DNA of 64,000 nucleotides from Dokdonella sp. GTDB lineage: Bacteria; Pseudomonadota; Gammaproteobacteria; Xanthomonadales; Rhodanobacteraceae. Under the pieces are notes generated by a model, which saw only the letters and a list, made by a program, of their open reading frames with translations, was not told the origin of the DNA and did no database searches. The translations under genes and the position numbers were made by a program. The stretch lies in assembly GCF_039926425.1 (NCBI RefSeq), contig NZ_JBDSWZ010000079.1, positions 82-64,081 of the forward strand, given 5' to 3'. Numbering within the stretch: position 1 is the first letter of the stretch; each line of letters opens with the position of its first letter. This document shows positions 4,895-35,250 of the stretch, one piece after another.

Positions 4895-5548
4895 ATGGAT
4901 ACGGGCCGTCCCGAACCACCGGGTCCGTTGTCGTTGTCCGCGCAGCTTCGTGCCAGGACGCGCGACCTGCACACCCAGGCCGAACGCAGCGGGATCATGC
5001 GCGCGCTTCTCCGCGGCGATGTGCAACGGGCTGCGTACGTGCTGCTTCTACGCAACCTCCACGCGATCTATGCTGCGCTGGAAGCCGCCCTTGAAGCGCA
5101 CGCCGCGCATCCGCTGATTGCGCCGCTGTACGACCCGTTGCTGTGGCGTCGTCGTCCGCTCGAACAAGACCTCGATGCGTTGCATGGCGCCGAATGGCGC
5201 GATCTCGCCATTACCCCGACCACCCGCGACTACGTCATTGTGGTCACCGCCGCGAATCCCGCGACGCTGGTGGCGCACGCCTATGTCCGCTATCTCGGCG
5301 ATCTCAGCGGCGGTCAGATCCTTGCACGCATCGTGCAGGCATCGCTGCAGCTCGAGGGGACGGCTGGCTCCGAGTTCTACCGTTTCGCCACGCCCGATGC
5401 GGGCGCTCTCGCGCAACGCTTCCGGCGCCAGCTGGACGGCATTCCCGTCAACGCTGCCCTCGCAGCGATTATCGTCGGCGAGGCACGTCGATCCTTCTCG
5501 ATGCACGTGCGACTGTTCGAGGAGCTGGCGGTCGCTCCGCCGTCCTGA
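4895..5548 (+). CDS. hmuO: Biliverdin-producing heme oxygenase (HmuO/HO-1 type)
   Basis: Proximal His region TRDLHTQAE and signature HAYVRYLGDLSGGQIL; adjacent to the phytochrome gene. Confidence 0.9.
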   Translation: MDTGRPEPPGPLSLSAQLRARTRDLHTQAERSGIMRALLRGDVQRAAYVLLLRNLHAIYAALEAALEAHAAHPLIAPLYDPLLWRRRPLEQDLDALHGAEWRDLAITPTTRDYVIVVTAANPATLVAHAYVRYLGDLSGGQILARIVQASLQLEGTAGSEFYRFATPDAGALAQRFRRQLDGIPVNAALAAIIVGEARRSFSMHVRLFEELAVAPPS

Positions 5549-5561
5549 TCGCCCGGCGAAC

Positions 5562-7751
5562 TCAACCGTCGCGATCTTTTTCGTAAGCGCGCAATTGCGA
5601 GTAGATCGCGGTCGCACGTTGCGTGGCTGTTCGAAGATCTTCGATCAACGCTGCAACTCCGCTGTTGCCGTTGCCGTCCGCAATGTCGATCGCCGCAAGA
5701 CGCGCGTTGGTGAGGATCGCACCGACCAGTGCGTCTGGCGGCTGCGCGCTCGCCAAATCGGCGGCGTTGCGACCATCGGCCCGACTCGCCTGATAGAGCG
5801 CCTCCTCCAGTTGTCGACGCGCCGCCTCGGCGCGCTTGTTTTCCGACAGATCGGTAAAGATCAGGATGAATCCAAGCACTGCACCGAGCGGACCGGGGAC
5901 CACATCGGCGCGAACGCCGACCGGGACATGGGGCGTGGACACGCCGCCAAACCGAAGCTCGCCTCGCCACGGTCGACGCTGCTCGCGAATCGTGCGGAGC
6001 ATCGCACGCGCATCCGCCGACTCGGTGAAGGCACCCGCAAGTTCGTCGAGCGTGCGGAGTGCCGATGTGCCGATCAGCGTATGGAACATGTCGTTGCTGA
6101 AGAGAATGTTGCCGCCTGCGTCGGCAATGACGACCGGCTCGCGCGCGTTGGCCACGGTGACGCGCACGAGGTTCAACTGGTGCTGCGCGATGAGCAGGCG
6201 CACCGCCTGGATCTGCACGATGATGTCGATCAGCGTGACGCCGATCGCGCGCGCAAGGGCAATCTCGGCATTCGACCACGGCGATGCGGTGCCGCGGACG
6301 ATCTGCGACCACGCCTCGAATGACCGTCGCGGCGACAGGTTCATCGGATCGTTGTCGATCACCGCTTTGGACGGATCTCCCGCCCACGTCACCTCGCTGT
6401 ACTGTTCGGCGCGGAACCACATCAGGTAATCCGGCCGCGAAATCGAGAGCTCCAGGGCGATCAACCCGCTCGCGGTCGGACTGATCGACGCGAACGCAGG
6501 GTTTTCGCGCGACACCGATGAACAGCAGAACATCGAATCGGTCTTCTGCGCGGCGACCCACGCAAGAAGTTTCCGCAGCTCGGGGGTCGATGGCACGTCG
6601 CCAACGGTCTGGATCTCGTCTTCGAAAAACAATGCCGCACCCGTTGCATCGAGCGGTTGCAGCAGCGTTCGCGGGCTGCGAAACAGCGCGCGCCGCCAGT
6701 CGCCATCCGTGGATGTGGCGTCGATCAGCCGCTGTTCGAGCGCACGCACAAGAATGACCCCTTGCGCGTGCGCGTAATTCTCGACTGCAGTGATGCGCGT
6801 CGAGATGACTTCGGCGAGCAGCCCGCACGCCGCACGCAGGCTGTATCCGATCCGCCGCGGCGAATAGTGGTGGCAGGCGATCAGGCCCCACAGGCGACCT
6901 TCGCGAACCAGCGACACCACCAGGGTGGCGGTGACGCCCATGTTCTTGAGGTACTGCAGGTGGAGCGGTGACATGCTCCGCAGGTAACACAGCGACATGT
7001 CCAGTTCGCTGCTGTCGGGCAGCACCGGAACCGGCTCGTAGTGGACGTCGACGAGGACGCGGACGCGATTGCGAACGTAGAGCGCGCGCGCGCGATGCGG
7101 GATGTCGGTCGACGGATAATGATGTCCCAGCAGGGATTCGAGCGATTTCCTGCGTGCTTCCGCAATGATCTCGCCGTGACCGTCCGGATCAAACTTGTAG
7201 ACCATCACCCGGTCGTAGCCCAGCAGCGCGCGCAGCGATTGCACCACGGAGTCAGAAAGCGCGGTCACGCTCGTCGCACTGCTGAACCGCTCGACCGCAG
7301 TGCCAAGCTGCAGGCGCAGTTCCTCGCCCGTGATGTCAATGCTCTCGATCGCAGACACGTCCGAATCGACGGGCTCCAGCTCGACGATGAGTCGCTCTCC
7401 GGCAATCCGATGAAGGATGCCTTCGAACTCCAGTGCACGGGAATTTCCGGTTGCATCGACAAAGCAGCGCAGAGGTTGCGGTTCGTCGAGAAGGTCACCG
7501 TCAAGCAGTCGCTCGATTCGACGTTGCAGGTTGCCGCCGAGTTCTGCGATCGAGCGACCCACCAGCGCCTCAACGGGAATCCCCAGGAGACCTGCGACGT
7601 TTGCGCTCGCCATTTCCACGCGCAAGCCGGTTTCATGAAGGACCAGCAGCACGCCATGTGGCTGCACGGAACCCGCAAGATGGATCAGCTCGCGCTCGCA
7701 GTTGGTGAGGTCGGCCTGACCAAACGCCGGACTGAGCAGCAGGCCCGTCAT
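5562..7751 (-). CDS. bphP1: Bacteriophytochrome, BphP1 type (PAS-GAF-PHY-PAS-helical output, no histidine kinase)
   Basis: N-terminal SPAFGQADLTNCERELIHLAGSVQPHG with the biliverdin-binding Cys, YPSTDIP, PRRSF tongue; C-terminal PAS plus HOS-like helices resembling Rhodopseudomonas BphP1. Confidence 0.92.
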   Translation of the reverse strand: MTGLLLSPAFGQADLTNCERELIHLAGSVQPHGVLLVLHETGLRVEMASANVAGLLGIPVEALVGRSIAELGGNLQRRIERLLDGDLLDEPQPLRCFVDATGNSRALEFEGILHRIAGERLIVELEPVDSDVSAIESIDITGEELRLQLGTAVERFSSATSVTALSDSVVQSLRALLGYDRVMVYKFDPDGHGEIIAEARRKSLESLLGHHYPSTDIPHRARALYVRNRVRVLVDVHYEPVPVLPDSSELDMSLCYLRSMSPLHLQYLKNMGVTATLVVSLVREGRLWGLIACHHYSPRRIGYSLRAACGLLAEVISTRITAVENYAHAQGVILVRALEQRLIDATSTDGDWRRALFRSPRTLLQPLDATGAALFFEDEIQTVGDVPSTPELRKLLAWVAAQKTDSMFCCSSVSRENPAFASISPTASGLIALELSISRPDYLMWFRAEQYSEVTWAGDPSKAVIDNDPMNLSPRRSFEAWSQIVRGTASPWSNAEIALARAIGVTLIDIIVQIQAVRLLIAQHQLNLVRVTVANAREPVVIADAGGNILFSNDMFHTLIGTSALRTLDELAGAFTESADARAMLRTIREQRRPWRGELRFGGVSTPHVPVGVRADVVPGPLGAVLGFILIFTDLSENKRAEAARRQLEEALYQASRADGRNAADLASAQPPDALVGAILTNARLAAIDIADGNGNSGVAALIEDLRTATQRATAIYSQLRAYEKDRDG

Positions 7752-7832: not shown

Positions 7833-9077
7833 TCAATGCACGTTGCGATCAGGACGTTCGCCATCGTCGAGGTGCTGCATCGTCGAATGATGCGAGACGC
7901 GGATGAGAAATCCGACGAGGCCATCCTGCCCGACAACCGTCGCCGAGAATTCCACATCGACCCGATCGGCGCTTGCGCGGCGCAGCCGGCCAGCCTGCAG
8001 GCCGAGCGACCCTTCGCGCCGAACACGCGCGAGTAGCATTCCGATGCTCGATTCTTTCGATCCCGCGGGGTCCACGAAAATCCAGTCCTCGAGATTGCCG
8101 CCGACGATGTGCCGACCGGGGGGACATTGCAGCAGATCAAGCAACGCCTGATTGACGATTTCGATGCGACCGGCACCACTGCAGACGACCACCGCATCCG
8201 GAGCGCGACGAATGAGGTCTGCAAATATCCGGTCCGCGTCTGCTCCAACCGAAATGGCATCGCGCGCCGTGTCGGCCCGTGGCGCAATCGACGCGGAAAG
8301 GAACATCACCACCAGAACCGGCACCGCCTCGTTGTCGAACGGCGTCACCGAAAACCCGATCTCCGCCCGATCATCGCCAAGCCGCAGAACGCCTTCCGCG
8401 ACACGCGCGGTGCGGCGCGCCGCCTCGAGACCAGCGGTCAACTCCCGCTGCGCATCCGCGCTGAACAGATCGGCGGTTGACCGACCTGCAATCTGCCGGG
8501 TTGATTGTCCGAGCATGCGTGCAGCAGCTGCGTTCGCGTCAAGGACACCCAGGCTCGACGCATCGAAGATCAGCGCGGGCTCGCTCGACACCTGGAACAG
8601 CAAGCGGTAGCGCGTTTCCGCCTGGCGATGCCGCCAATGGTCACGCTCCATGTCTTTCTGGCTTTGCAGCAGACGCTCCTGCATCGCGGCGACCGCGCGC
8701 ATGTCGCGACCGACGGCCAGCGTCGGACCCTGATCGCCCAGCCGGACCGCGGCATACGCAATCGGGATGTCCAGACCTTCGGACGCGTGCTCGACGTGGC
8801 GCAGTCGCGACACGCCGGTGCTGGCGAGATCGTCGAGAACCGCCTCGACCTTCTCGCGCGTGTTCCCGGTGACGGTGTCGCTCCAGCGCTGGCCGACCCA
8901 CTCGCAAGCCGATTCGGAAACGGCCTGCGTTTCGCCGAGTGCCACACTCCGGATCACTCCGCCCTCATCGAGCACAAGTGCAATGTCGTAGGCGACCGAC
9001 ACAAGCATGTCCGCAAGCTCCGGTGCAAGGTCGGACAACGCACTGAGATCCGCGAACGGACGAGGCTTTTTGCTCAT
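7833..9077 (-). CDS. ppsR2: PpsR2-like multi-PAS protein lacking the C-terminal HTH
   Basis: N-PAS, Q-linker (GRDMRAVAAMQERLLQSQKDMERDHWRHRQAETRYRLLFQ), PAS1 and PAS2, then a stop with no Fis-type HTH; AGGAG RBS before ATG 9077. Confidence 0.85.
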   Translation of the reverse strand: MSKKPRPFADLSALSDLAPELADMLVSVAYDIALVLDEGGVIRSVALGETQAVSESACEWVGQRWSDTVTGNTREKVEAVLDDLASTGVSRLRHVEHASEGLDIPIAYAAVRLGDQGPTLAVGRDMRAVAAMQERLLQSQKDMERDHWRHRQAETRYRLLFQVSSEPALIFDASSLGVLDANAAAARMLGQSTRQIAGRSTADLFSADAQRELTAGLEAARRTARVAEGVLRLGDDRAEIGFSVTPFDNEAVPVLVVMFLSASIAPRADTARDAISVGADADRIFADLIRRAPDAVVVCSGAGRIEIVNQALLDLLQCPPGRHIVGGNLEDWIFVDPAGSKESSIGMLLARVRREGSLGLQAGRLRRASADRVDVEFSATVVGQDGLVGFLIRVSHHSTMQHLDDGERPDRNVH

Positions 9078-9161
9078 GTGCCGCTCCTGCACGTGCGAAA
9101 CGACGTGGAGCGGGTTGCTCGTTGTCGCCGAACTCGAAATCGCCGGATCGACTCCATCGAT

Positions 9162-13539: not shown

Positions 13540-13557
13540 TGTCCAGCATTCGTGACA
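13540..13557. promoter_or_regulatory. PpsR operator upstream of bchG
   Basis: Perfect TGTCCAGCATTCGTGACA (TGT-N12-ACA), 52 bp upstream of the bchG start. Confidence 0.85.
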
Positions 13558-13803: not shown

Positions 13804-15285
13804 TCACGTTTCGGCGTCGTCGGACTCGCCTGTCGCATCGCCAAGACCGTAGCGTCTCAGCTTTACGTAGAGGCTCTGCCGGCTGAGACCAAGCACCTCC
13901 GCTGCTGATGCGCGATTGTCGCGCGTCAATTGCAACGCCGCCTCGATGCACAGCTTTTCGACCAGATCGGTGGCGTCGCGGACCAGTTCCTTCAGCGGAA
14001 CGCGACCGACCAGCTCGGTCAGCTGCGCGACTGAGCGCGGCTGGTCTGCGACGTGGCCCGTTGCGTCGGACGCAATGCGCCGACCAACATCGCGGATGTT
14101 GAATCCCATGCACGGCGGATCGGCCGCTGGCATTGCGACACCGGAGACCTCGACCTCGGCAACGGCGCCGTGCTCGCCGGTCAGCGTCGTGGCGAAGAGT
14201 CGAATCGTGCCGTGTTGGCGCAAGTTGGCCATCAGCACGCTGAAATCGACGCGCGAGCGACCGATCCAGCGATCCAGTGATTCACCGCGCGCCAGCGCGT
14301 CCGATGGCATCTGCGACAGATCGAGGAACGCGCGGTTCGTGGCGACGACGCGCCCGTCGATGTCGGTCACCGCAAACGCATCCGCGGAAAACTCCAGCGC
14401 GCGAAGCACGGTTTTCGGCAACTGCGCAGGCCCCATTTCAATCCGCGGCAGCGCAATGCGCAAAAGATAGAGCGCGTCGTTGCCCTGGCGCAGATAGAAC
14501 GACGACACCAGGTATTCGCGCCTGTCGATGCCGAGTCGGATCGAAATGTCGTCGGTGCGGCCTGTGGCCCGCGCGCCCGCCACGAGAGTCTGCATGACTT
14601 GTGCGTTTTCGACACCGAGGCACTCGAAGACCGTCTTGCCGATCACGCGTTTGGCGGAATCGCCCAGCAGCTCCGCGACGGCTGGATTGGCCTCCACGAC
14701 CTTGTCGGTGGCCGCATCGACGATGAGGATCGCCTCGGCCGAAATCTGGAACAGCATGCGGTAGCGCGTTTCGACGTTCCGCAAACGCCAGTAATCGCGT
14801 TCCATCGACTGCTGCGCGTCCATCAGACGCTGCTGCAGCCCGGTCATTTCGCGCATATCGCGGCCGAACGCGACGATCTGCCCATCGCGACCTGCGCGCA
14901 CTGCGGAATACAGCACCGGCACGTCGCCGCCGCGCGACGAATTGTGATTGACGTAGCGCCACTTGTGATCGCCGGGATCAGCGGCGTCGCGCAGCAGAGC
15001 CTCGACTTTGGACCGGCTGTCCGGGGTCACGGTTTCGATCCAGGGCTGACCGATCCACTTTCGGTAGCCCTCCCTCGCCATGTCTTCGCTGCCAAAACTC
15101 ACATCGACGACAGTGCCGTCGGCATCGAGGATCAGCGAGAGGTCGGCGGCGGCGGTGACGAGTGCCGCAACGCCCGTCGCGTCGAGCCCGCCCAGCCAGC
15201 TGCCGGGACTCGGGACCTGCTTCACGCGCGGAGCTCGTATCGAAGCATTGACCTTCGCGACCTCAATCATCGGTTTCCGAGCCAT
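13804..15285 (-). CDS. ppsR: PpsR/CrtJ transcriptional repressor (full length)
   Basis: N-PAS, Q-linker, PAS1, PAS2 and Fis-type HTH (VEKLCIEAALQLTRDNRASAAEVLGLSRQSLYVKLRRYGL) with the redox Cys; start approximate. Confidence 0.93.
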   Translation of the reverse strand: MARKPMIEVAKVNASIRAPRVKQVPSPGSWLGGLDATGVAALVTAAADLSLILDADGTVVDVSFGSEDMAREGYRKWIGQPWIETVTPDSRSKVEALLRDAADPGDHKWRYVNHNSSRGGDVPVLYSAVRAGRDGQIVAFGRDMREMTGLQQRLMDAQQSMERDYWRLRNVETRYRMLFQISAEAILIVDAATDKVVEANPAVAELLGDSAKRVIGKTVFECLGVENAQVMQTLVAGARATGRTDDISIRLGIDRREYLVSSFYLRQGNDALYLLRIALPRIEMGPAQLPKTVLRALEFSADAFAVTDIDGRVVATNRAFLDLSQMPSDALARGESLDRWIGRSRVDFSVLMANLRQHGTIRLFATTLTGEHGAVAEVEVSGVAMPAADPPCMGFNIRDVGRRIASDATGHVADQPRSVAQLTELVGRVPLKELVRDATDLVEKLCIEAALQLTRDNRASAAEVLGLSRQSLYVKLRRYGLGDATGESDDAET

Positions 15286-15302: not shown

Positions 15303-16253
15303 CTACGGTTGTCGTTCGGCACCATTTCCCTGGCCGTCGCGACGTGCGGCAAGCGATTCGGCCCTGGCGAGTGTATCGCGAGGATCGCCTGTACACCCAT
15401 CGGCACCGATGCCTGCACCCCGTTCCGGATGGGCGCCAAACGCCGGGCCGCTGACCGTGACGCCGACCGCTCCGTTGAGGGAGGTGCGCCGCATCTCCGC
15501 GATGTCCGCCGACAACTGCGGCAAACGTCCGGAGCAACTCGACGCGACATCGATCACGTCGAACCACTGTGTTTGCAGGATCTGCGCAAGCTGTGGGCGC
15601 GACGACGGAAGGGTGCGCCAGACGTGCCATCCGGCACGATAGAAGAACTCCGCGGTCATGCAGCGGTAGAACTCCGTCACCATGAAGACGCCCAGCATGT
15701 TCTGTTCGCACGGCGCAGAAAGGACCAGGGCCCTGCGACCGCACGCGGTCGCCTGCATCGCGAGCGGCGTATTCGCACTCAGCGAATGCAGCACATGCTT
15801 CAGGTTGAGCATGCCGAGCGCGACTTCCTCGAAGTGGCAGACGTCGGCCTGCCAGCGCTCCAGGATCAGGTTCGCCGTCGGCATGAGCAGTTCGAGGTAG
15901 AGCGCCTGTGGCGTCGTCGCGTCGGACAGCCGCGCCGAAACCCAGTCCCACACTGAGGACGCACGCTGAGTCGAGACCAGTGCGCTGAACTCCAGCACGT
16001 CCGGACGTCCAGGAGACCACGATGACTCGACCATCGGCGTCGACGATCGATAGGCGACCATCAGCCGGGGTATGACTTCCATCTCGACCGCGCGACCGAG
16101 ATCTCCAGTCCCCAATGTCGAGCCGGACGCGCCGCGCGAGCGGCCATCCTCGCGATGCGGTTCGGTTTTTCCAGAACCCGTCTTCAGCGAACGGCGGGTC
16201 GAGTTGCGCCATGCGCCAGGGCGCGTCACACGGTCAGGCGTCAAGCCGTTCAT
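15303..16253 (-). CDS. aerR: AerR/PpaA-family antirepressor (cobalamin-binding fold, atypical)
   Basis: EMEVIPRL, LYLELLMPTA, WQADVCHFEEV, AGW and FDVIDVASSC motifs; canonical position between ppsR and bchF; GGAGG RBS. Confidence 0.88.
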   Translation of the reverse strand: MNGLTPDRVTRPGAWRNSTRRSLKTGSGKTEPHREDGRSRGASGSTLGTGDLGRAVEMEVIPRLMVAYRSSTPMVESSWSPGRPDVLEFSALVSTQRASSVWDWVSARLSDATTPQALYLELLMPTANLILERWQADVCHFEEVALGMLNLKHVLHSLSANTPLAMQATACGRRALVLSAPCEQNMLGVFMVTEFYRCMTAEFFYRAGWHVWRTLPSSRPQLAQILQTQWFDVIDVASSCSGRLPQLSADIAEMRRTSLNGAVGVTVSGPAFGAHPERGAGIGADGCTGDPRDTLARAESLAARRDGQGNGAERQP

Positions 16254-16485
16254 TTGGTTTCCTCCCCCAAATACACGGTGCGGATGTTCTTCGACGCTGC
16301 ACTGGGTCGGTTTCCTGGAACAACAAGGACGCCGGCCAATCGCTGTTGGAGACCTTTTTTAAGGCCTTTTTGAAACGTCGAACCCTTGGCCCTTCGAGCA
16401 AAGTCAATCTGGCGGGCTGCGACGGATCGTCCCACCGGCCGCGCGACTCGTCAAACCCTTTTCCGCACATCCGACACTTTTTCGG

Positions 16486-16542
16486 TGTAAGGAAACTTAG
16501 ACGTCGCATTTAGTTGACAGTCAGAAACCGCGGGTCTAGATT
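16486..16542 (+). promoter_or_regulatory. bchF promoter overlapped by two near-consensus PpsR boxes
   Basis: TTGACA (16514-16519), 17 nt, TAGATT (16537-16542); TGTAAGGAAACTTAGACG (16486-16503) and CGTCGCATTTAGTTGACA (16502-16519). Confidence 0.75.
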
Positions 16543-16577
16543 CCGAACGGTCAACGACGAGCGGCGGATGCGAAGAA

Positions 16578-28230: not shown

Positions 28231-28776
28231 ATGAGCGAACACGGCCACAACGCACAATTCCCGAAGCTGCCGCTGTACACGGCAGCCGCGCTGATCGTTA
28301 CGACGCTGATACTGGTGACCATCACCCGGCTCACCGGTTTCGGCGATCTTCGGACACCGCAGACAGCCATCGTCAGCGAACGCGACCTGCGTTTTCAGGA
28401 CATGCAGGATGGAGGCATCACCGTCATCGATGCGTCCACCCAGCAGGTGGTCGAACAGGTAGCGCCGGGAACCAATGGATTTCTTCGGGGCACGCTGCGC
28501 GGACTCGCACGCGAGCGGAAGCGCGAGGGAATCGGCCCGGACATCGCGTTCCGGCTCACCGGCCGCAGCGACGGCCGATTGTTGCTCGAAGATCCTGCAA
28601 CCAGACGCCTGATCGATCTCGGCTCTTTTGGCCCGACCAATGCGGCAGTCTTTGCTCGCTTGTTGCTCGAACAGCCGAAGGGCACCGCTCCCGTGACGGC
28701 CACTGCGCCCGCGATGCCCGGGACGCCGCTCGCGTCGCTTGGAGCGGATGCGGCCGGCGTTGCTGGCCAACCTTGA
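28231..28776 (+). CDS. puhC: Photosynthetic complex assembly protein PuhC
   Basis: [21 protein letters not shown] and [14 protein letters not shown] motifs. Confidence 0.92.
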
Positions 28777-28801
28777 ACCATCATCCCGAGGAGAGTCCGC
28801 C

Positions 28802-29866
28802 ATGACCGCCACCGTCGCCGGACGCACGCCCAACGAATCCACCCAGCGCGCGCAACAGGACACCCTGCTGTCGCCGCGTTTCTACACGACCGATTTCGCG
28901 GCGATGGATCGCATCGACGTCAGTGCGGTCCGCGGCCAGTGGGATTCGCTGATCGCCGAATTCGAAGCCGACGTCAACGCGGTGCATTTCCAGCGCCCGG
29001 CCAATCTCGACAAGGATTATTCGCACCTTCCCGAAGGCCTCTACCAGGAATTCGTCGACTTCATGATCAGCTCGGTGACCGCCGAGTTTTCCGGCTGCGT
29101 GCTGTACACGGACATCAAGAAGAAGACCACCAATCCTGATATCCAGGCGCTGTTCGGGTACATGGCCCGTGATGAAGCGCGCCATGCGGGTTTCATCAAC
29201 CAGTGGTTGAAGGACTTCGGCATCGCCGTCGATCTCGGCTTCCTGACGCGCGCTAAGAAATACAAGTACTTCAGCCCGAAATTCATCTTCTACGCAACAT
29301 ACCTGTCGGAGAAGATCGGCTACGCACGCTACATCACGATCTTCCGTCAGATCGAAAAGCATCCGGAGTTGCGCTTCCACCCGATCTTCCAGTGGTTCGA
29401 TCGGTGGTGCAACGATGAATTCCGCCACGGTGAAGCATTTGCGCTGCTGATGCGCGCAAACCCGAAGCTGCTCGGCGGCGTGAACAAGTTGTGGATCCGC
29501 TTCTTCCTTCTCGCAGTGTTCGCGACGATGTACGTGCGCGACCACGAGCGCGTCGAGTTGTACAAGGCGTTCGACATGGACCCGACCGATTACGATTTCA
29601 CCGTCTTCCGCATCACCAGCGAGATTTCGCGACAGGTGTTTCCGCTCACGGTCAACATCGATGATCCGCGCTTTCGCGCATGCCTCGACAGGCTGCTCAA
29701 GATCAACCAGCAATATGCCGCAGCCAAGGCGGCCGGTGGCTTCCTCAACAAGCTCAAGGGCGTCACGCTCGCCGCGCGCGCCGCGCTCACGTTCGGACGC
29801 CTGTATCTCCTGCCCACGCATTCCCACGCGTTGCCGACGGACGTGCGCCTGGCGCCGGCCTGGTGA
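28802..29866 (+). CDS. acsF: Aerobic Mg-protoporphyrin IX monomethyl ester cyclase
   Basis: [11 protein letters not shown]; diiron ligands [20 protein letters not shown] and DEFRHGE. Confidence 0.96.
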
Positions 29867-30753: not shown

Positions 30754-31285
30754 ATCGGGCAGCACGACGACGCGACTGCGCGAGCTTTCCTGCGAGGAAT
30801 GAGGTTTGGCCACCTCGGCTGAGATCGTCCTGACCGGAATTTGAATACGTTGCGTGCAGTTCATCGAACAGCGCACATTCTGTCTGACCATGTCGTCATT
30901 GCATTCGAGCAAGGAACGTATCGCGCAGTCGAGTCGTGCTCGTGTGCTTCAACGCTGTTTCTGGATGTTTGAAGGCGACAACAGCTTGCTGCTCGAGAGT
31001 CGTGCATCCGTTGTCCCCCACGTGTCCACCGCAATCGCTTGCCTCATCGACTATGGTCCGGAACGGATCCGGCCAAGCGCGACGTGCTCTCGTTCGTACC
31101 CACGCGTGAACTTCCCATTTGTCGACGCTTCGTGCGCTCTGTCGACCGTATCGCGCCGGCGTTGCGGACGCACGCGCTTGAATCTGGCGTCCCTTTTCCC
31201 GCTTGTCAAAGACGCGACGTTCCTGCGCCCTCGCAGTCCGATCCCGTTCCCGGTATTCCATGCAAGGTCGTCGAGGTCAAATCGT

Positions 31286-32845
31286 ATGAAAACCCGATCA
31301 CATGTCCTGACCCATACGCTGGCAAGCCTCTTGGGGCTAGCGAGTACATGCTCGGCATTGGCCGCCCCGACGGCGTCCGCATCGGCGCTCATCGAGAAAG
31401 GACGGTATCTCGCGCAAGCCGGAGATTGCGTGGCCTGCCACACGAAGAAGGGGGGTGCGCCATTGGCCGGGGGTCGCGCGCTCGACACACCGTTCGGGCC
31501 GCTCATCAGTCCCAATATCACGCCCGACAAGGATACCGGCATCGGCAATTGGTCGGACGACGATTTCTACCGCCTCATGCACGAGGGCATCGGCAAGCAA
31601 GGGGAATATATTTATCCGGTGATGCCATTTCCCTGGTACACGATCGTCACGCGCGACGATGCGCTCGCCATCAAGGCGTATCTTTTTTCCATACCTCCGG
31701 TCCATTCCCCGCGTCCGGAGAACACGCTGTCGTTTCCTTTCAGTATCCGCAGTTCCCTGCTCGCCTGGCGCCAGGCGTTCTTCAAGCCGACTGATTTCCA
31801 GGGAGATCCGCAGCAGAGCGAGCAGGTCAATCGCGGTTCGTATCTGGTCAACGGCCTCGCGCATTGCGGCGAATGCCACAACGCGCGGCCGATCGCTGGC
31901 ACGTCGCGCTGGCGCGAGCCTCTGGCAGGTGGAACGATCCAGAACTGGTATGCGCCAAATATTTCCTCGGACATGCGCAGCGGCATTGGTGCGTGGTCGA
32001 ACGGCGATCTGGTTTCCTTCCTGAAGACGGGCACGGCACCTGGAAAAGGCGTCGCGGTTGGGCCAATGGCAGAGACGGTCCACAGCCTTTCGCATCTGAC
32101 AGACGGGGATCTCGCGGCGATCGCGGCGTATCTGAAAACCACACCACCGGTCGCTGAAACGGCTCAGCAGTCCGACCCCGCGCAACCGTTCGAGCGCGGT
32201 TCACGGACCTATCTGGATCATTGTGCGTCGTGCCACGGGGTGGACGGCGAAGGACTCGCGGGGGTCGTCCCAGCGCTCAAGGACAATGGCGCTGTTCTCG
32301 CCGCCGGCCCGCAGAACGTGATCAGCGTGGTGCTCGGCGGACTGCAGGCGAATGGAACCCTCGCCCCGATGCCGGCGATCGGCTCCGCCATGAGCGACGG
32401 CGACGTTGCAGACGTCACCAACTACGTGCGCCAGGCCTGGTCGCAGAAAGCTCCGGCAACAGCGACCAACGCGATGGCGTTCGATTTGCGAGCCCAGGTC
32501 GACGGTCTACTCAATGCCGCACCCCGCACAGGCTGCCCACCCGTCGCAAACGCAGAACTCGTGAAGGCACTCGGCACCGCCACCTACAGGACACAATTGT
32601 CGGCGGTCACGGATGCCGGTATGTACCAACAAACCGGTCAGCTCGTCGCGCAGTTGAGGAAATCGAACAGAGCGGTACCTGATGCAGACCTCATCAACGG
32701 ATTGACAGCGGCCTACTGCCCGATCGTCCGCGCAGACCCCGAGCTCGACCAGAATGCGAAAGCGCTCAAAATCGGCCGGTTTGCGAACTATGTCTATATG
32801 GCAGTTGCCGGGGGTCCGGAAGCGAAGATGCATGCGAAAAAGTGA
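31286..32845 (+). CDS. Periplasmic triheme cytochrome c (gluconate/alcohol dehydrogenase cytochrome-subunit family) with C-terminal extension
   Basis: Signal peptide; CVACH, CGECH and CASCH heme motifs; GRYLAQAGDC, SPNITPD and APNIS family motifs. Confidence 0.88.
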   Translation: MKTRSHVLTHTLASLLGLASTCSALAAPTASASALIEKGRYLAQAGDCVACHTKKGGAPLAGGRALDTPFGPLISPNITPDKDTGIGNWSDDDFYRLMHEGIGKQGEYIYPVMPFPWYTIVTRDDALAIKAYLFSIPPVHSPRPENTLSFPFSIRSSLLAWRQAFFKPTDFQGDPQQSEQVNRGSYLVNGLAHCGECHNARPIAGTSRWREPLAGGTIQNWYAPNISSDMRSGIGAWSNGDLVSFLKTGTAPGKGVAVGPMAETVHSLSHLTDGDLAAIAAYLKTTPPVAETAQQSDPAQPFERGSRTYLDHCASCHGVDGEGLAGVVPALKDNGAVLAAGPQNVISVVLGGLQANGTLAPMPAIGSAMSDGDVADVTNYVRQAWSQKAPATATNAMAFDLRAQVDGLLNAAPRTGCPPVANAELVKALGTATYRTQLSAVTDAGMYQQTGQLVAQLRKSNRAVPDADLINGLTAAYCPIVRADPELDQNAKALKIGRFANYVYMAVAGGPEAKMHAKK

Positions 32846-32951: not shown

Positions 32952-34427
32952 TCAAAGCCCGCCGGCAGCCTGTGCCACGGCGCGAAAAAGCGCTCTTCCC
33001 TTGTTCATCGTCTCTTCCCACTCGGTCGTCGGATCCGAATCGTAGACGACACCGCCGCCAGCCTGAACGTATAGACGGCCGTCCTGGATCACCGCGGTGC
33101 GGATCGCGATCGCGGTGTCGGCGTCGCCCCACCAGCCGATGTAGCCGATCGCTCCGGCATAGATGTTGCGCTTGTGCGGCTCCAGCTGCTGGATGATCTC
33201 GATCGCGCGGATCTTCGGCGCGCCACTCACCGTTCCAGCGGGGAATGTCGCCTTCAGCACGTCCATGTAGGAGAGCCCGTCGCGCAGCTCACCTTCGACC
33301 TGGCTGACGATGTGCATCACGTGTGAATACCGTTCGATGATGAAACTTTCGGTGAGCTTCACGCTGCCAGTCTTGCTCACGCGGCCGACGTCGTTGCGAC
33401 CGAGGTCGATCAGCATCAGGTGCTCGGCGCGCTCCTTCGCATCGCCGAGCAGTTCCTGCTCGAGCGCGAGATCCTCTTCCGGCGTTTTTCCGCGCGGACG
33501 CGTTCCCGCGATCGGCCGCACCACGACTTTGCCTTCTTTCAGGCGGACGAGAATCTCGGGCGACGAGCCGACGATCTGGGTCTTGCCGAGGTCGACAAAG
33601 TACATGTACGGAGACGGATTGAGCGCGCGCAGTGCCCGGTACACGTCGACCGGTCGCGCGCGGAATGCGACGGACAGACGCTGCGATGGAACGACCTGGA
33701 AAATGTCCCCGGCGCGAATGTATTCCTTCGCCTTCTCGACCAGCGCCTCGTATTCCGCGCGCGTGAAACTCGATTCGAAATCGGTCTCCTCCAGCGCCTT
33801 CGGATCGGGCACGTCCGGATAGCCGGAGCCGGAATGACGCAACCGGAACGCCAGTTCATCGAGCCGACGACGGGCCCGCGCAAGCGCCTGCGGCTGCGCC
33901 GGATCGGCGTGCACGATCAGGTACAGCCGTCCCTTGAGGTTGTCGAAGACGGCGACCTCTTCGCTCAGCATCAGCAGCGCATCTGGCGTGCCGAGTTCGT
34001 CGCGCTGGTCGTCGCGCGCCAGGCGCGGCTCGATCCAGCCCACGGTCTCGAAACCGAAGTGGCCGACCAGCCCGCCGCTGAAGGCCGGCAGCCCGGGCAG
34101 CTGCGGAACCTTGAACGCCGTGCGCAGGCGCTCGATTTCCGCAAGCGGATCGGCGAGCGTGCGCGTTTCGACCACCTCGCCGAGATCCTCGACGGTCAGC
34201 GTGTTTCCGCGCAGCACGTAGACGCGCCGGCACGGCAGGCCAATGATCGAATGCCGGCCCCACATCGCGCCGCCCTCGACCGATTCGAACAGGTACGCAT
34301 ACGGCGCGTCGGCGAGCTTGAGATACACCGACAACGGCGTGTCGAGGTCGGACAGCACCTCGCGCACCACCGGAATGCGGTTGTAGCCCTGCGCGGCGAG
34401 CGCGTTGAAGTCGTCCTGGGAAATCAT
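32952..34427 (-). CDS. trpE: Anthranilate synthase component I
   Basis: DLDTPLSVY, LFESVEGG, NPSPYMY, RPIAGT, AEHLMLIDLGRND and TFPAGTVSGAPK motifs. Confidence 0.97.
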   Translation of the reverse strand: MISQDDFNALAAQGYNRIPVVREVLSDLDTPLSVYLKLADAPYAYLFESVEGGAMWGRHSIIGLPCRRVYVLRGNTLTVEDLGEVVETRTLADPLAEIERLRTAFKVPQLPGLPAFSGGLVGHFGFETVGWIEPRLARDDQRDELGTPDALLMLSEEVAVFDNLKGRLYLIVHADPAQPQALARARRRLDELAFRLRHSGSGYPDVPDPKALEETDFESSFTRAEYEALVEKAKEYIRAGDIFQVVPSQRLSVAFRARPVDVYRALRALNPSPYMYFVDLGKTQIVGSSPEILVRLKEGKVVVRPIAGTRPRGKTPEEDLALEQELLGDAKERAEHLMLIDLGRNDVGRVSKTGSVKLTESFIIERYSHVMHIVSQVEGELRDGLSYMDVLKATFPAGTVSGAPKIRAIEIIQQLEPHKRNIYAGAIGYIGWWGDADTAIAIRTAVIQDGRLYVQAGGGVVYDSDPTTEWEETMNKGRALFRAVAQAAGGL

Positions 34428-34533
34428 CAATGAGCGGTGTGCGGGACAAGGCCGGCGACGATAGCAAGCTTGCGTGGCCTGCGTCTGCCGCGAACCATCG
34501 TCCGCATGCCGGGCAAACCGGCATCGGCATCGG

Positions 34534-35250
34534 TCAGGGTCTTGGCAAGCCCTCGCCACCGTCGATCCGCGACGTCGACGCATGCGTCCTGACCTCATCA
34601 GGCACCGCGAGTGCGGTGATCTTGCCAACCGTGACTGTGCCGGTGAGCTGCCCGATGAAAGCCGCAAATTGCGCATCGCGCCTCTTGTCGAAAACCTCTC
34701 CGGGCACCGACGCGCCACCGCCGGACATCTCGTAGACCTGCAAGTTGCCTTTCCAATGGCCGTGGCCGGTCGAGGTGTAGAGATCGGCCTCATAGCGCGC
34801 GATGGCGCGGTCCAGGGTCACCTTGTTGCCATACTTCGCATCGAGGGTCTGCCATAGCGCATCGGCTTCGGCACGTTGCGGGTCTGTCAGCTCGTCGCTG
34901 GCAGCCTTCAGCGCGTTGTCCACCAGATCACCGTGCGTTTCTGCCGCGATCCGGAACCACGCGACGCCCTGGACCTTGTCGACCGGTACGCCGATGCCGT
35001 TGAACAGCATCACGGCTGCGTTGTATTGCGCGAGCTTGTTGCCCCAGAAGCCGGAGAGCTGGAACATTTCCAGCGCAGCGCGGTAATCCTTGTTCTTGAG
35101 GTACCACTGCGCCTTGTGGTCGAAGTACGTACCCGGGAAAAAGCTGCTGGGTTCCTCCCAGAGCGCGGGGATCGAAGCCGCCGACAAGAGGCCCGTGCAT
35201 CCATACAAGAGAACGCCGAGCGTGAAGTGGAGCGGTCGGAAATTCGCCAT
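34534..35250 (-). CDS. Secreted Sel1-like repeat protein
   Basis: Signal peptide; AQYNAAVMLFNGIGVPVDKVQGVAWFRIAA Sel1 repeat. Confidence 0.8.
   Translation of the reverse strand: MANFRPLHFTLGVLLYGCTGLLSAASIPALWEEPSSFFPGTYFDHKAQWYLKNKDYRAALEMFQLSGFWGNKLAQYNAAVMLFNGIGVPVDKVQGVAWFRIAAETHGDLVDNALKAASDELTDPQRAEADALWQTLDAKYGNKVTLDRAIARYEADLYTSTGHGHWKGNLQVYEMSGGGASVPGEVFDKRRDAQFAAFIGQLTGTVTVGKITALAVPDEVRTHASTSRIDGGEGLPRP

What the first reader, a model, noticed from the sequence alone, without database searches (positions are those of the whole stretch)
15303..16253. AerR/PpaA lacking the cobalamin-ligating His, with an 8-residue internal duplication
Seen: the family motif E-Q-H-x-x-G reads EQNMLG (AAC at 15699-15701, one base from CAC). 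The following helix is degenerately duplicated (MVTEFYRC/MTAEFFYRA, about 15634-15683). The conserved LGxxW reads ILERW, and the protein has six Cys. Known: AerR/PpaA use that His to bind B12 and antagonise PpsR. Inference: three independent changes around the pocket suggest a B12-independent, alternative-ligand (heme or bilin) or thiol-redox antirepressor. This is a second rewired PpsR input beside the HTH-less PpsR2.
Basis: partly seen in the sequence, partly recalled or inferred. Interest (0 to 1): 0.68.

Follow-up and report, generated by a model that had tools for sequence, protein, structure and literature searches.

The report
AerR-type regulator without B12-ligating histidine
This gene encodes a relative of the vitamin-B12-binding light sensor AerR that controls photosynthesis genes, but it belongs to a conserved, previously undescribed bacterial subfamily that has lost the histidine holding the B12 cobalt and has doubled a piece of the neighbouring helix, so it probably senses something else or nothing.

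Summary
ORF 15303-16253 (-) encodes a 316-aa AerR/PpaA homologue. It lies 17 nt upstream of ppsR1 and is divergent from bchFNB, inside a photosynthesis gene cluster.

- **Histidine loss.** The cobalamin motif reads E-Q-N-M-L-G, with Asn185 where AerR has His145.
- **Duplication.** Helix α1 carries an exact 8-residue tandem duplication of the family motif MVxEFFRR.
- **Not an error or a pseudogene.** The codon is identical in three independent metagenome assemblies. dN/dS is about 0.15 overall and 0.04-0.11 on the duplicated helix.
- **A clade, not a one-off.** About 36 cluster representatives (41-99% identical) all lack the His (N/S/C/A/D) and all carry the insert. In the genome collection this form occurs only in Nevskiales/Lysobacterales MAGs.
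- **Order of events.** A sister lineage (P0034, P0180, P0185-188) has the insert and still has His, so the duplication came first.
- **Pocket remodelled, not decayed.** Other pocket residues were replaced by new conserved ones (D140H, T145A, T186M, G235D). The Trp/Phe cap, Gly188 and Gly269 are retained.

His-on cobalamin binding is excluded. Whether the protein binds no cofactor, a His-off corrinoid or something else is not settled by sequence. The heme/SCHIC and bilin ideas have no support. I class it as a new variant of a known kind, of moderate interest.

The parts
15303..16253 (-). CDS of the AerR/PpaA-like protein (316 aa plus stop)
   Evidence: ORF list and sequence. AerR 7TE2 is the best PDB sequence hit. 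Foldseek top hit is 7te2 with TM 0.72 on the target. dN/dS is 0.14-0.15 against orthologues.
16261..16265 (-). GGAGG ribosome-binding site, 7 nt before the ATG at 16253
   Evidence: Read directly from the sequence. The start is shared by all homologues (MNGLT...).
16194..16253 (-). Conserved N-terminal tail motif MNGLTxDRVTRxxAWRNS, with no conserved His
   Evidence: Alignments A1 and A2. The region is predicted disordered, with pLDDT below 50 for residues 1-46. Related M-x-G-L-T-Q...W starts occur in His-containing relatives.
15771..16004 (-). Four-helix-bundle cap domain (residues 84-161). It holds Trp134 and Phe141 (the AerR W94/F101 cap) and the clade-specific His140 and Ala145
   Evidence: AF2 helices 84-95, 98-107, 115-135 and 141-161, with 10-residue block mean pLDDT 81-95. 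Weak Pfam B12-binding_2 hit. Column statistics. dN/dS 0.06-0.10.
15330..15734 (-). Rossmann-type B12-binding-like domain (residues 174-308)
   Evidence: AF2 strand/helix pattern with pLDDT about 90-96. Foldseek hits to AerR, CarH, photocobilin and AppA SCHIC. dN/dS 0.07-0.15.
15690..15707 (-). Degenerate cobalamin motif E183-Q-N185-M-L-G188, where the family has E-x-H-x-x-G
   Evidence: Position 185 is N17 S8 C3 A2 D1 in the clade against H 145/145 in canonical relatives. Met186 is 30/31 in the clade against Thr/Ser in canonical relatives.
15699..15701 (-). AAC codon for Asn185, in place of the lower-axial His
   Evidence: Sequence. Unchanged in contigs of runs X1, X3 and X4.
15660..15683 (-). 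Repeat copy 1, MVTEFYRC (residues 191-198), including the clade-specific Cys198
   Evidence: PSSM test. Cys198 is 29/31 in the clade and the column is absent in canonical relatives.
15636..15659 (-). Repeat copy 2, MTAEFFYR (residues 199-206)
   Evidence: PSSM score 23.1, the best 8-mer in the protein. It forms an 8-column insert relative to AerR and 145 canonical relatives. AF2 predicts one continuous helix 187-206.
15549..15551 (-). Asp235 codon. Canonical relatives have Gly (136/145) just before the S-x-L-type motif
   Evidence: Column statistics. The His-containing intermediate P0034 already has Glu here.
13804..15285 (-). ppsR1 (493 aa, full-length PpsR/CrtJ with HTH_8), starting 17 nt after the aerR-like stop. 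It is the presumed partner and is probably co-transcribed
   Evidence: TIGR02040 gives 483.9 bits over profile 1-442/442. Pfam HTH_8 hit. The same 17-nt spacing is seen in orthologous contigs L083, L084 and L085.

Best explanation
The gene encodes a PpsR co-regulator that descends from the cobalamin photoreceptor AerR/PpaA. It keeps the AerR architecture: a disordered N-tail, a four-helix-bundle cap and a Rossmann B12-type domain. It also keeps the AerR position, immediately upstream of and apparently in one operon with ppsR1, divergent from bchFNB.

It belongs to a distinct subfamily found in soil and freshwater Nevskiales/Lysobacterales-like phototrophs. In this subfamily the cofactor pocket was rebuilt in steps:
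1. An 8-residue tandem duplication lengthened helix α1 by about two turns. Thr186→Met, Phe187→Leu, Thr145→Ala and Gly235→acidic came with it, while His was still present.
2. The cobalt-ligating His was then replaced by a small residue (N/S/C/A/D).
3. Asp140→His, Gly131→Ser/Ala and other changes followed.

**Shown:** homology, fold, synteny, absence of the ligand, clade-wide conservation, purifying selection and the order of events.

**Inferred:** the protein can no longer hold cobalamin His-on and therefore no longer works as the AerR-type B12 light/B12-availability sensor. It still binds and modulates PpsR1, as an antirepressor or co-regulator. Its pocket is either self-filled or occupied by a ligand that needs no protein His. 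Light input to this cluster would then come from the neighbouring bacteriophytochrome / HTH-less PpsR2 pair, and oxygen input from PpsR1 itself.
For: **Homology and fold**
- AerR 7TE2 is the only significant PDB sequence hit (E 4e-4 with the single sequence, 1.6e-14 with the clade profile).
- The AF2 model has domain block-mean pLDDT 79-96. Its best Foldseek match is 7te2, followed by CarH-type domains.

**Synteny**
- The order bchN-bchF | aerR-like - ppsR1 - bchG - pucC - bchP - tspO - ppsR2 - bphP holds in the window. The same order through tspO is seen in L001, L003, L005, L010 and L081. Of these, L001, L003, L005 and L010 also show ppsR2, bphP and, in L003 and L010, heme oxygenase.

**Loss of the ligand**
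- Asn185 is confirmed in three assemblies.
- 31 proteins with no His and with the insert stand against 145 with His and no insert. Five more His-less members appeared.
- In the genome collection only L001-L010, all Nevskiales/Lysobacterales MAGs, carry this form.

**Order of events**
- P0034, P0180 and P0185-P0188 carry EQHMLG plus the insert. They show mosaic character states in the same gene context.
- The His-less group is monophyletic in an NJ tree built without the defining columns.

**Selection**
- dN/dS is 0.14-0.15 overall and 0.04-0.11 on the duplicated helix.

**Consequence of losing His**
- In SAerR the H145A change largely disrupts cobalamin binding (PMC6199135).
- No conserved His exists in the N-tail to act like LAerR His10.

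**Precedents**
- R. rubrum HP1 is a PpaA/AerR-like protein without the B12 motif that still activates photosynthesis genes (PMC10734443).
- Class II LitR is inferred not to bind B12 and acts as the effector of a separate LOV photoreceptor (PMC9758184).
Against: - No binding, interaction or expression data exist. No RNA run holds the locus.
- Several cobalamin-contact positions of 7TE2 are still invariant or conservative in the clade: Trp134, Phe/Tyr141, Glu183, Gly188, Ser/Ala237 and Gly269. The residues that replaced pocket positions are themselves conserved. This fits a pocket that still holds a ligand.
- His140, next to the cap Phe, arose after the His loss and could ligate from the upper face. 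It is present in only 23 of 31 members.
- LAerR H145A still binds OH-Cbl through its upper His (PMC6199135), so loss of the lower His alone does not prove loss of B12.
- The BphP/PpsR2 pair is not tied to the His-less form. His-less L008 and L009 lack it within the sequence held, and His-containing L012 has it.
Confidence: 0.55

Rival explanations
1. It is still a corrinoid sensor that binds cobalamin or another cobamide without a lower protein ligand. Binding would be base-off/His-off, base-on, or through the upper-face His140 or a Cys. Its photochemistry or redox behaviour would differ from AerR.
For: - The W134 / F-Y141 cap, G188, S/A237 and G269 are retained (contact residues listed in PMC9144470).
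- The substituted pocket residues are conserved rather than drifting (M186 30/31, D235 28/31, A145 30/31).
- The bundle and Rossmann domains have dN/dS of 0.06-0.15.
- Asp140→His appears only after the His loss.
- The intermediate lineage keeps His together with most of the remodelled residues, so remodelling was compatible with a His-containing site.
- Some members have Cys at position 185.
Against: - SAerR H145A largely loses cobalamin (PMC6199135).
- Position 185 varies (N/S/C/A/D), so it is not a replacement ligand.
- His140 is absent in 8 of 31 members: Arg in 4, Asn in 2, Pro in 1 and a gap in 1.
- The N-tail has no conserved His.
- Pfam B12-binding does not reach significance on the window protein.
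Confidence: 0.3
2. It is a heme-binding (SCHIC-like) or bilin-binding sensor. The pocket would have switched tetrapyrrole, as in AppA.
For: - Foldseek also matches the AppA SCHIC domain (4heh, 4hh3_C; TM 0.71-0.74 on the target) and photocobilins.
- A heme oxygenase and a bacteriophytochrome lie 7-10 kb away.
Against: - There is no His at 185±2. [quoted passage not shown]
- No His is invariant anywhere in the clade.
- The W/F cap that SCHIC replaces by Leu/Arg is kept.
- The HMMER alignments to AerR show no lengthened β3-α3 segment.
- The clade profile does not hit AppA by sequence.
- There is no Cys-Pro heme-regulatory motif.
- In photocobilins the domain matched here is the B12-binding domain (PMC10979010). 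From my own knowledge, biliverdin is held by an additional C-terminal domain, which is absent from this 316-aa protein.
Confidence: 0.07
3. It is a thiol-redox antirepressor. Conserved cysteines (139, 198, 240) would form or break disulfides, within the protein or with PpsR, and replace B12 as the signal.
For: - Cys198 lies inside the insert, is 29/31 conserved and is already present in the intermediate lineage.
- Cys139 and Cys240 are 30/31 in the clade.
- PpsR/CrtJ itself senses oxygen through Cys oxidation (PMC6199135, introduction).
Against: - Cys139 and Cys240 are also common in His-containing relatives (113/145 and 51/145), so they are not a new feature.
- By the fold topology, Cys198 sits about 11 residues down helix α1, away from Cys240 at the top of β3. 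This is inferred, because I had no coordinates.
- Two members lack Cys198 (Arg, Ala).
Confidence: 0.2
4. It is an artefact or a decaying gene, caused by a sequencing or assembly error at the codon or by a pseudogene.
For: AAC is one base from CAC.
Against: - The codon is identical in three independent assemblies.
- About 36 cluster representatives share the loss.
- All are full-length ORFs, with dN/dS of 0.14-0.15.
Confidence: 0.01

Closest known systems
AerR (R. capsulatus, PDB 7TE2) / PpaA (R. sphaeroides): cobalamin-binding co-regulators of CrtJ/PpsR
   Same: - Best sequence and structure match.
- Same two-domain architecture with an N-terminal tail.
- Same gene position upstream of ppsR, divergent from bchF.
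- The Trp/Phe cap, the motif Glu and Gly, and the GG-motif Gly are conserved.
   Different: - The lower-axial His145 is replaced (Asn185).
- Helix α1 is 8 residues longer through a tandem duplication.
- There is no conserved N-terminal His like His10.
- Pocket positions 131, 140, 145, 186 and 235 are changed to new conserved residues.
- Sequence identity to 7TE2 is only about 19%.
HP1 (Rru_A0625) of Rhodospirillum rubrum, a PpaA/AerR-like protein without a recognisable B12 motif (PMC10734443)
   Same: - An AerR-lineage gene next to ppsR that has lost the canonical cobalamin motif.
- HP1 shows experimentally that such a protein can still control photosynthesis genes.
   Different: - HP1 is a reduced, 181-aa protein that has lost most conserved family residues and any recognisable domain.
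- The protein here keeps both domains at high predicted confidence and most contact residues, and has gained a helix duplication.
- The two are independent losses in different classes of bacteria.
SCHIC domain of AppA (R. sphaeroides, PDB 4HEH/4HH3), a heme-binding derivative of the B12-binding fold
   Same: - Same fold (TM 0.71-0.74 on the target).
- Also a PpsR partner that no longer uses cobalamin.
   Different: - SCHIC keeps a His shifted by two residues as the heme ligand.
- SCHIC replaces the W/F cap by L/R.
- SCHIC has a long β3-α3 loop filling the B12 site (PMC9144470).
- None of these is seen here.
Class II LitR/CarH regulators (PplR/PmlR2 of Pseudomonas), inferred not to bind B12 and acting as effectors of a separate LOV photoreceptor (PMC9758184)
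   Same: Analogy only. This is a B12-photoreceptor lineage that gave up the chromophore and takes its light signal from another photoreceptor encoded nearby.
   Different: - It is a different family (MerR-type DNA binders).
- It retains only the helical-bundle domain, whereas both domains are kept here.
- No link between this protein and the bacteriophytochrome has been shown.

Membership tests
AerR/PpaA lineage (homology and gene context) | Significant sequence similarity to characterised AerR | tested here: met
   7te2_A gives E 4e-4 with the single sequence and 1.6e-14 with the clade profile. It is the only significant AerR-type hit.
AerR/PpaA lineage (homology and gene context) | Four-helix-bundle cap plus Rossmann B12-type domain | tested here: met
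   AF2 model with domain block-mean pLDDT 79-96. Foldseek top hit 7te2 (TM 0.72 on the target), then the CarH and LitR B12 domains.
AerR/PpaA lineage (homology and gene context) | Gene directly upstream of and co-oriented with ppsR/crtJ inside the photosynthesis gene cluster | tested here: met
   The stop at 15303 is followed by the ppsR1 ATG at 15285. ppsR1 matches TIGR02040 at full length. The arrangement is conserved in relatives.
Cobalamin-binding AerR/PpaA photoreceptors (functional class) | E-x-H-x-x-G motif whose His is the lower axial ligand of cobalt (His145) | tested here: not met
   The window reads E-Q-N-M-L-G. Position 185 is never His in the 31 clade members (N17 S8 C3 A2 D1), against 145/145 His in canonical relatives.
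Cobalamin-binding AerR/PpaA photoreceptors (functional class) | N-terminal His that becomes the upper axial ligand after photolysis (His10 of LAerR) | tested here: inconclusive
   No His is conserved in the N-tail of the clade. His33 of the window is not conserved. His-containing relatives also lack a conserved N-terminal His, so this feature may be specific to Rhodobacter.
Cobalamin-binding AerR/PpaA photoreceptors (functional class) | Trp94/Phe101 cap over the upper face; Gly220 and Thr189 contacts to the nucleotide tail | tested here: met
   W134 is 30/30. Position 141 is F/Y in 30/30. G269 is 31/31. Position 237 is S21 A6 C3 D1.
Cobalamin-binding AerR/PpaA photoreceptors (functional class) | Binds hydroxo-, adenosyl- or methyl-cobalamin | not testable with these tools
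   This needs purified protein and spectroscopy.
Cobalamin-binding AerR/PpaA photoreceptors (functional class) | Physically binds CrtJ/PpsR and changes its DNA binding | not testable with these tools
   Only the operon arrangement supports it.
SCHIC (heme-binding) domain, AppA type | His heme ligand shifted two residues from the B12 His position | tested here: not met
   Residues 183 and 187 are Glu and Leu. No His is invariant in the clade.
SCHIC (heme-binding) domain, AppA type | Cap Trp/Phe replaced (L239/R246) and a long β3-α3 loop occupying the B12 site | tested here: not met
   The cap is retained. The alignments to AerR show no lengthened β3-α3 segment. The profile does not hit AppA.
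CarH/LitR B12 photoreceptor-transcription factors | N-terminal MerR-type DNA-binding domain fused to the B12 module; W-x9-E-H motif | tested here: not met
   There is no MerR domain. Positions 144-145 read Val-Ala rather than Glu-His.

The most novel reading that the evidence does not exclude
The rebuilt pocket is a new sensor site rather than a dead one. After the helix duplication the subfamily would have moved its axial ligand to the upper face (His140, next to the cap Phe/Tyr) or dispensed with protein ligation altogether. It would then hold a corrinoid or other tetrapyrrole in a coordination state not seen in B12 photoreceptors, with different light or redox chemistry. The lengthened helix α1 with Cys198 would provide a new output surface towards PpsR1 or the HTH-less PpsR2.
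Probability: 0.2. Interest if true: 0.78.

Novelty: new variant of a known kind. Interest (0 to 1): 0.52.

Why it matters
AerR/PpaA is the standard example of vitamin B12 used as a light-sensing chromophore to control photosystem synthesis. The His ligand is treated as a defining residue of the family.

This work finds a whole conserved subfamily in uncultured soil and freshwater gammaproteobacterial phototrophs that has given that residue up while keeping the rest of the module under strong selection. A living intermediate lineage shows the order of the changes.

That gives a natural series for asking what the B12 module does for PpsR control when the cofactor bond is removed:
- canonical form;
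- His plus duplication;
- duplication without His.

The answer could be a ligand-free mimic of the holo state, a His-off corrinoid site or a new signal.

It also warns annotators. These genes are labelled 'cobalamin B12-binding domain protein', 'MtbC1' or 'MerR light-induced regulator' in databases. Those labels imply a chemistry the protein probably cannot perform.

Tried and rejected
- **Sequencing error.** Rejected. The contigs of X1, X3 and X4 agree at 15699-15701.
- **Pseudogene.** Rejected by dN/dS and by full-length orthologues.
- **NCBIfam and Pfam naming.** NCBIfam gave no family. Pfam gave only a sub-threshold B12-binding_2 hit.
- **Organism identification.** The genome collection has no close match. 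The best AerR-like hit is 48% identical and the best BchN hit 86%, both to Lysobacterales/Nevskiales-type MAGs. The lineage is therefore known only from rhizosphere, soil and root metagenomes.
- **Link between the His-less form and BphP/PpsR2.** Not supported. L008 and L009 lack the pair in the 4-5 kb held beyond tspO, and His-containing L012 has it.
- **PpsR palindrome TGT-N12-ACA in the aerR-bchF spacer.** None found. Sites exist elsewhere, for example at 13540-13557.
- **Cobalamin riboswitch or any Rfam family in the window.** None found.
- **RNA evidence.** No run was listed.
- **Second AerR/AppA-like gene in the window.** None found by tblastn.
- **Key older papers.** Vermeulen & Bauer 2015 and Moskvin 2010 are not held in the library.
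- **NJ tree.** It places the intermediate P0034 next to the canonical P0035, not as the exclusive sister of the clade. I rely on the shared, clearly homologous insert for a single origin.
- **Distances in the model.** Distances between Cys residues or pocket volume could not be measured, because the structure tool returns no coordinates.
Full report
**What is in the sequence**

The ORF at 15303-16253 on the minus strand encodes 316 residues. A GGAGG box lies 7 nt before the ATG. Every homologue begins with the same MNGLT... sequence, so the start is secure.

Residue 185 is Asn, codon AAC at 15699-15701, within E183-Q-N-M-L-G188. Searching the PDB by sequence gives one meaningful hit, AerR of Rhodobacter capsulatus (7TE2, E 4e-4). 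In that alignment PCEQNMLG lies opposite PGEQHTLG, so Asn185 lies opposite His145. The window protein also has eight extra residues in the helix that follows.

Contigs from three independent metagenome runs cover the codon with no difference. The runs come from rhizosphere and root samples of one study. A sequencing error is excluded.

**The duplication is real**

Relatives with a normal motif have a single copy of an 8-residue element before A-G-W, with consensus MVAEFFRR. The window has MVTEFYRC followed by MTAEFFYR, residues 191-206 at 15636-15683.

I built a position-specific score matrix from the single-copy element of 97 canonical proteins. In all 32 insert-bearing proteins the two best-scoring 8-mers of the entire protein lie exactly eight residues apart. 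The two DNA copies in the window still share 14 of 24 bases. AlphaFold2 predicts one uninterrupted helix from 187 to 206 at pLDDT about 95. Helix α1 of the Rossmann domain is therefore about two turns longer than in AerR.

**Family and fold**

- Pfam gives only a sub-threshold B12-binding_2 hit, and NCBIfam gives nothing.
- A profile of the clade hits AerR at 1.6e-14 and no other regulator.
- The AF2 model has an overall mean pLDDT of 78 and 10-residue block means of 79-96 across the folded part. It shows a disordered tail (1-46), a helix at 49-69, a four-helix bundle (84-161) and a five-stranded Rossmann-type domain (174-308).
- Foldseek ranks 7te2 first (TM 0.72 on the target). B12 domains of CarH/LitR-type regulators and photocobilins follow, along with the AppA SCHIC domain.

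**Context**

- The stop codon is followed 17 nt later by ppsR1 (13804-15285, minus strand). This is a full-length PpsR/CrtJ with an HTH_8 domain.
- The same 17-nt spacing recurs in three orthologous contigs.
- Upstream and divergent are bchF, bchN and bchB.
- Further along the minus strand come bchG, a pucC-type gene, bchP and tspO. After these come a PpsR paralogue that stops before the HTH (7833-9092), a bacteriophytochrome with a PAS output (5562-7751) and, on the plus strand, a heme oxygenase.
- The aerobic cyclase AcsF is present at 28739-29866.

**It is a clade, not a lesion**

- The first homologue search returned 28 cluster representatives at 41-99% identity. All have the 8-residue insert and none has His at the motif position. 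Four more distant hits have GEQH and no insert.
- A scan of one genome per species found this form only in ten MAGs. They are labelled Panacagrimonas, Hydrocarboniphaga, Rudaea, Lysobacterales, Lysobacteraceae or unclassified Pseudomonadota.
- Of the other 70 related loci, nearly all labelled Burkholderiales or its genera, the 56 in which my motif search located the site read PGEQHTFG...EFFHRAGW or a close variant, apart from one evident mis-hit. In the remaining 14 the search did not locate the motif.
- A profile search of 1.84 billion representatives was followed by a joint alignment of all 180 sequences in hand. It gave 145 proteins with His and no insert, and 31 with no His (N17, S8, C3, A2, D1), all of them with the insert.
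- An NJ tree built without the defining columns keeps the His-less group monophyletic.
- The closest genome match to the window is only 48% identical for this protein and 86% for BchN. The organism is an unsampled relative of these gammaproteobacteria.

**Selection**

- Against orthologues 85, 80 and 77% identical, dN/dS is 0.14-0.15.
- By region, dN/dS is 0.04-0.11 for the duplicated helix, 0.06-0.10 for the bundle, 0.07-0.15 for the Rossmann domain and 0.14-0.31 for the N-tail.
- The gene is functional, and the duplicated helix is its most constrained part.

**Order of events**

- One representative, P0034, has the insert and still has His (EQHMLGVFMVSEFFRCIVSEIFRREGW).
- A search with P0034 found four more clusters of this kind at 66-87% identity (P0185-P0188). 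The intermediate is therefore a lineage, not a chimera.
- Its contig has the same gene order, including the HTH-less ppsR2 and bphP.
- Its character states are mosaic.
  - Derived, as in the His-less clade: Ser179, Met186, Leu187, Ala145, an acidic residue at 235, Cys198.
  - Ancestral: His185, Gly131, Asp140, Leu148, Trp149, Gly213, Asp245.
- The duplication and part of the pocket remodelling therefore preceded the loss of His.
- Separate His losses without the insert also exist: Gln in P0073 and P0103, and Asp plus a loop insertion in P0041.

**State of the pocket**

The 7TE2 paper names the following cobalamin contacts: His145, the Trp94/Phe101 cap, Arg88, Glu155, Thr189 and Gly220 (PMC9144470). 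The table below uses the column statistics, and where marked.

| Position (window) | 7TE2 equivalent or role | His-less clade | Canonical relatives |
|---|---|---|---|
| Trp134 | Trp94 cap | 30/30 | 145/145 |
| Phe/Tyr141 | Phe101 cap | 30/30 | F 138/145 |
| Glu183 | motif Glu | 31/31 | E 120/145 |
| Gly188 | motif Gly148 | 31/31 | 143/145 |
| Gly269 | Gly220 | 31/31 | 145/145 |
| 237 | Thr189 | mostly Ser or Ala | S 136/145 |
| 128 | Arg88 | R 20/31 (Asn in the window's own subgroup) | R 122/145 |
| 185 | His145 | variable: N, S, C, A, D | H 145/145 |
| Met186 | residue after the His | 30/31 | Thr/Ser |
| Asp235 | before the S-x-L-type motif | 28/31 | Gly 136/145 |
| Ala145 | bundle, upper face (CarH His142 position) | 30/30 | Thr 137/145 |
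| His140 | next to the cap Phe | 23/31 | Asp and others |
| 131 | Gly of LGxxW | Ser/Ala/Leu | Gly 139/145 |

Position 185 itself is the only variable one. This is the pattern of a remodelled site, not a decaying one. It does not say what now occupies the site.

**Mechanism: what I commit to**

*Shown:* this is an AerR-lineage protein in the AerR position, it lacks the cobalt ligand, and it is under strong constraint.

*From the literature:*
- H145A largely disrupts cobalamin binding in the short AerR isoform. The long isoform can still hold OH-Cbl through His10 (PMC6199135).
- The clade has no conserved N-terminal His.

*Inferred (confidence 0.55):* the protein is no longer a His-on B12 sensor. 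It still acts on PpsR1. Light and oxygen information reaches the cluster by other routes, namely the bacteriophytochrome branch and PpsR1's own redox chemistry.

*Precedents:*
- R. rubrum HP1 is an AerR-like protein without the B12 motif that still activates pigment synthesis (PMC10734443).
- Class II LitR is a B12-photoreceptor relative that its authors infer cannot bind B12, having kept only the helical-bundle domain. It serves a neighbouring LOV protein (PMC9758184).

*Main rival (0.3):* a His-off corrinoid site. It is favoured by the retained cap and glycine positions and by the late appearance of His140.

*Minor rivals:*
- Heme/SCHIC-like or bilin binding (0.07) lacks every SCHIC hallmark tested.
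- A thiol switch (0.2, not exclusive of the others) rests mainly on Cys198 in the insert. Cys139 and Cys240 are also common in His-containing relatives.

I tested whether the new form goes with the BphP/PpsR2 pair, and it does not.

**Comparison and novelty**

- By descent and context this is an AerR/PpaA gene.
- By the defining chemistry, His-ligated cobalamin, it fails the test. I do not file it as a cobalamin-binding AerR.
- It is not SCHIC and not CarH/LitR.
- Four full-text searches found no description of this subfamily or of its helix duplication. A 2025 review of photosynthesis gene clusters in aerobic phototrophs mentions ppaA/aerR only generically.
- Two relevant older papers could not be read, so a prior remark in an alignment figure cannot be excluded.

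I rate it a new variant of a known kind. Interest is 0.52. The subfamily is real, conserved and evolutionarily informative. Its function is unresolved, and cofactor-less AerR, LitR and AppA relatives already exist as concepts.

Noticed in passing
window 7833-9092 (-): A second PpsR paralogue of 419 aa stops before the DNA-binding domain. It matches TIGR02040 only over profile positions 1-359 of 442, scores 249.5 bits (below the cut-off of 275.4) and has no HTH_8. An equivalent HTH-less copy lies just before bphP in L081. tblastn finds matching copies next to bphP in L001, L003, L005, L010 and the His-containing L012.
   Followed up: partly
window 5562-7751 (-) and 4895-5548 (+): A bacteriophytochrome (PAS_2-GAF-PHY plus a C-terminal PAS_9, with no kinase domain) lies directly downstream of the HTH-less PpsR2. 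A heme oxygenase sits beside it. The arrangement recalls the BphP/PpsR2 pairs of Bradyrhizobium and Rhodopseudomonas, but here with a PpsR2 that cannot bind DNA by itself.
   Followed up: partly
window 13540-13557, 270-287 and 14 other sites: The PpsR-type palindrome TGT-N12-ACA occurs 16 times, against 6.6 expected (0 of 100 shuffles reach 16). One site lies between the ppsR1 stop and the bchG start. None lies in the aerR-bchF spacer at 16254-16577.
   Followed up: partly
proteins P0073, P0103, P0041 (not in the window): Other AerR-like lineages lost the His independently without the helix duplication. P0073 and P0103 have Gln. P0041 has Asp plus an 8-residue insertion in the motif loop.
   Followed up: no
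window 16194-16253 (-), residues 1-20: The N-terminal motif MNGLTxDRVTRxxAWRNS is conserved across the clade. It is echoed as M-x-G-L-T-Q...W in His-containing relatives, although the tail is predicted disordered. It may be the counterpart of the LAerR tail that carries His10, but no His is conserved.
   Followed up: partly
whole window: No Rfam family reaches its gathering score in the 64 kb, so no cobalamin riboswitch is present here. AcsF, the oxygen-dependent cyclase, is present at 28739-29866. No bchE was seen, but the cluster runs off the left end of the window.
   Followed up: partly
whole window; runs X1-X4: The organism has no close match among the 185,579 species-representative genomes. 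The best BchN match is 86%, to Lysobacterales/Nevskiales-type MAGs. Near-identical sequence occurs only in rhizosphere, soil and root metagenomes of one study.
   Followed up: partly
window 15303-16253 (-), residues 128, 237, 268: The window's own subgroup (P0001-P0005) is more degenerate than the rest of the clade at further cobalamin-contact positions. The Arg88 equivalent is Asn in the window and its closest relatives, though P0005 keeps Arg. The Thr189 equivalent is Ala instead of Ser. The first Gly of the GG motif is Ser.
   Followed up: no
window 30854-32845 (+) and 32952-34793 (-): A 663-aa ORF with a C-terminal cytochrome c domain is followed by an anthranilate-synthase-type gene. This probably marks the right-hand end of the photosynthesis gene cluster.
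   Followed up: no
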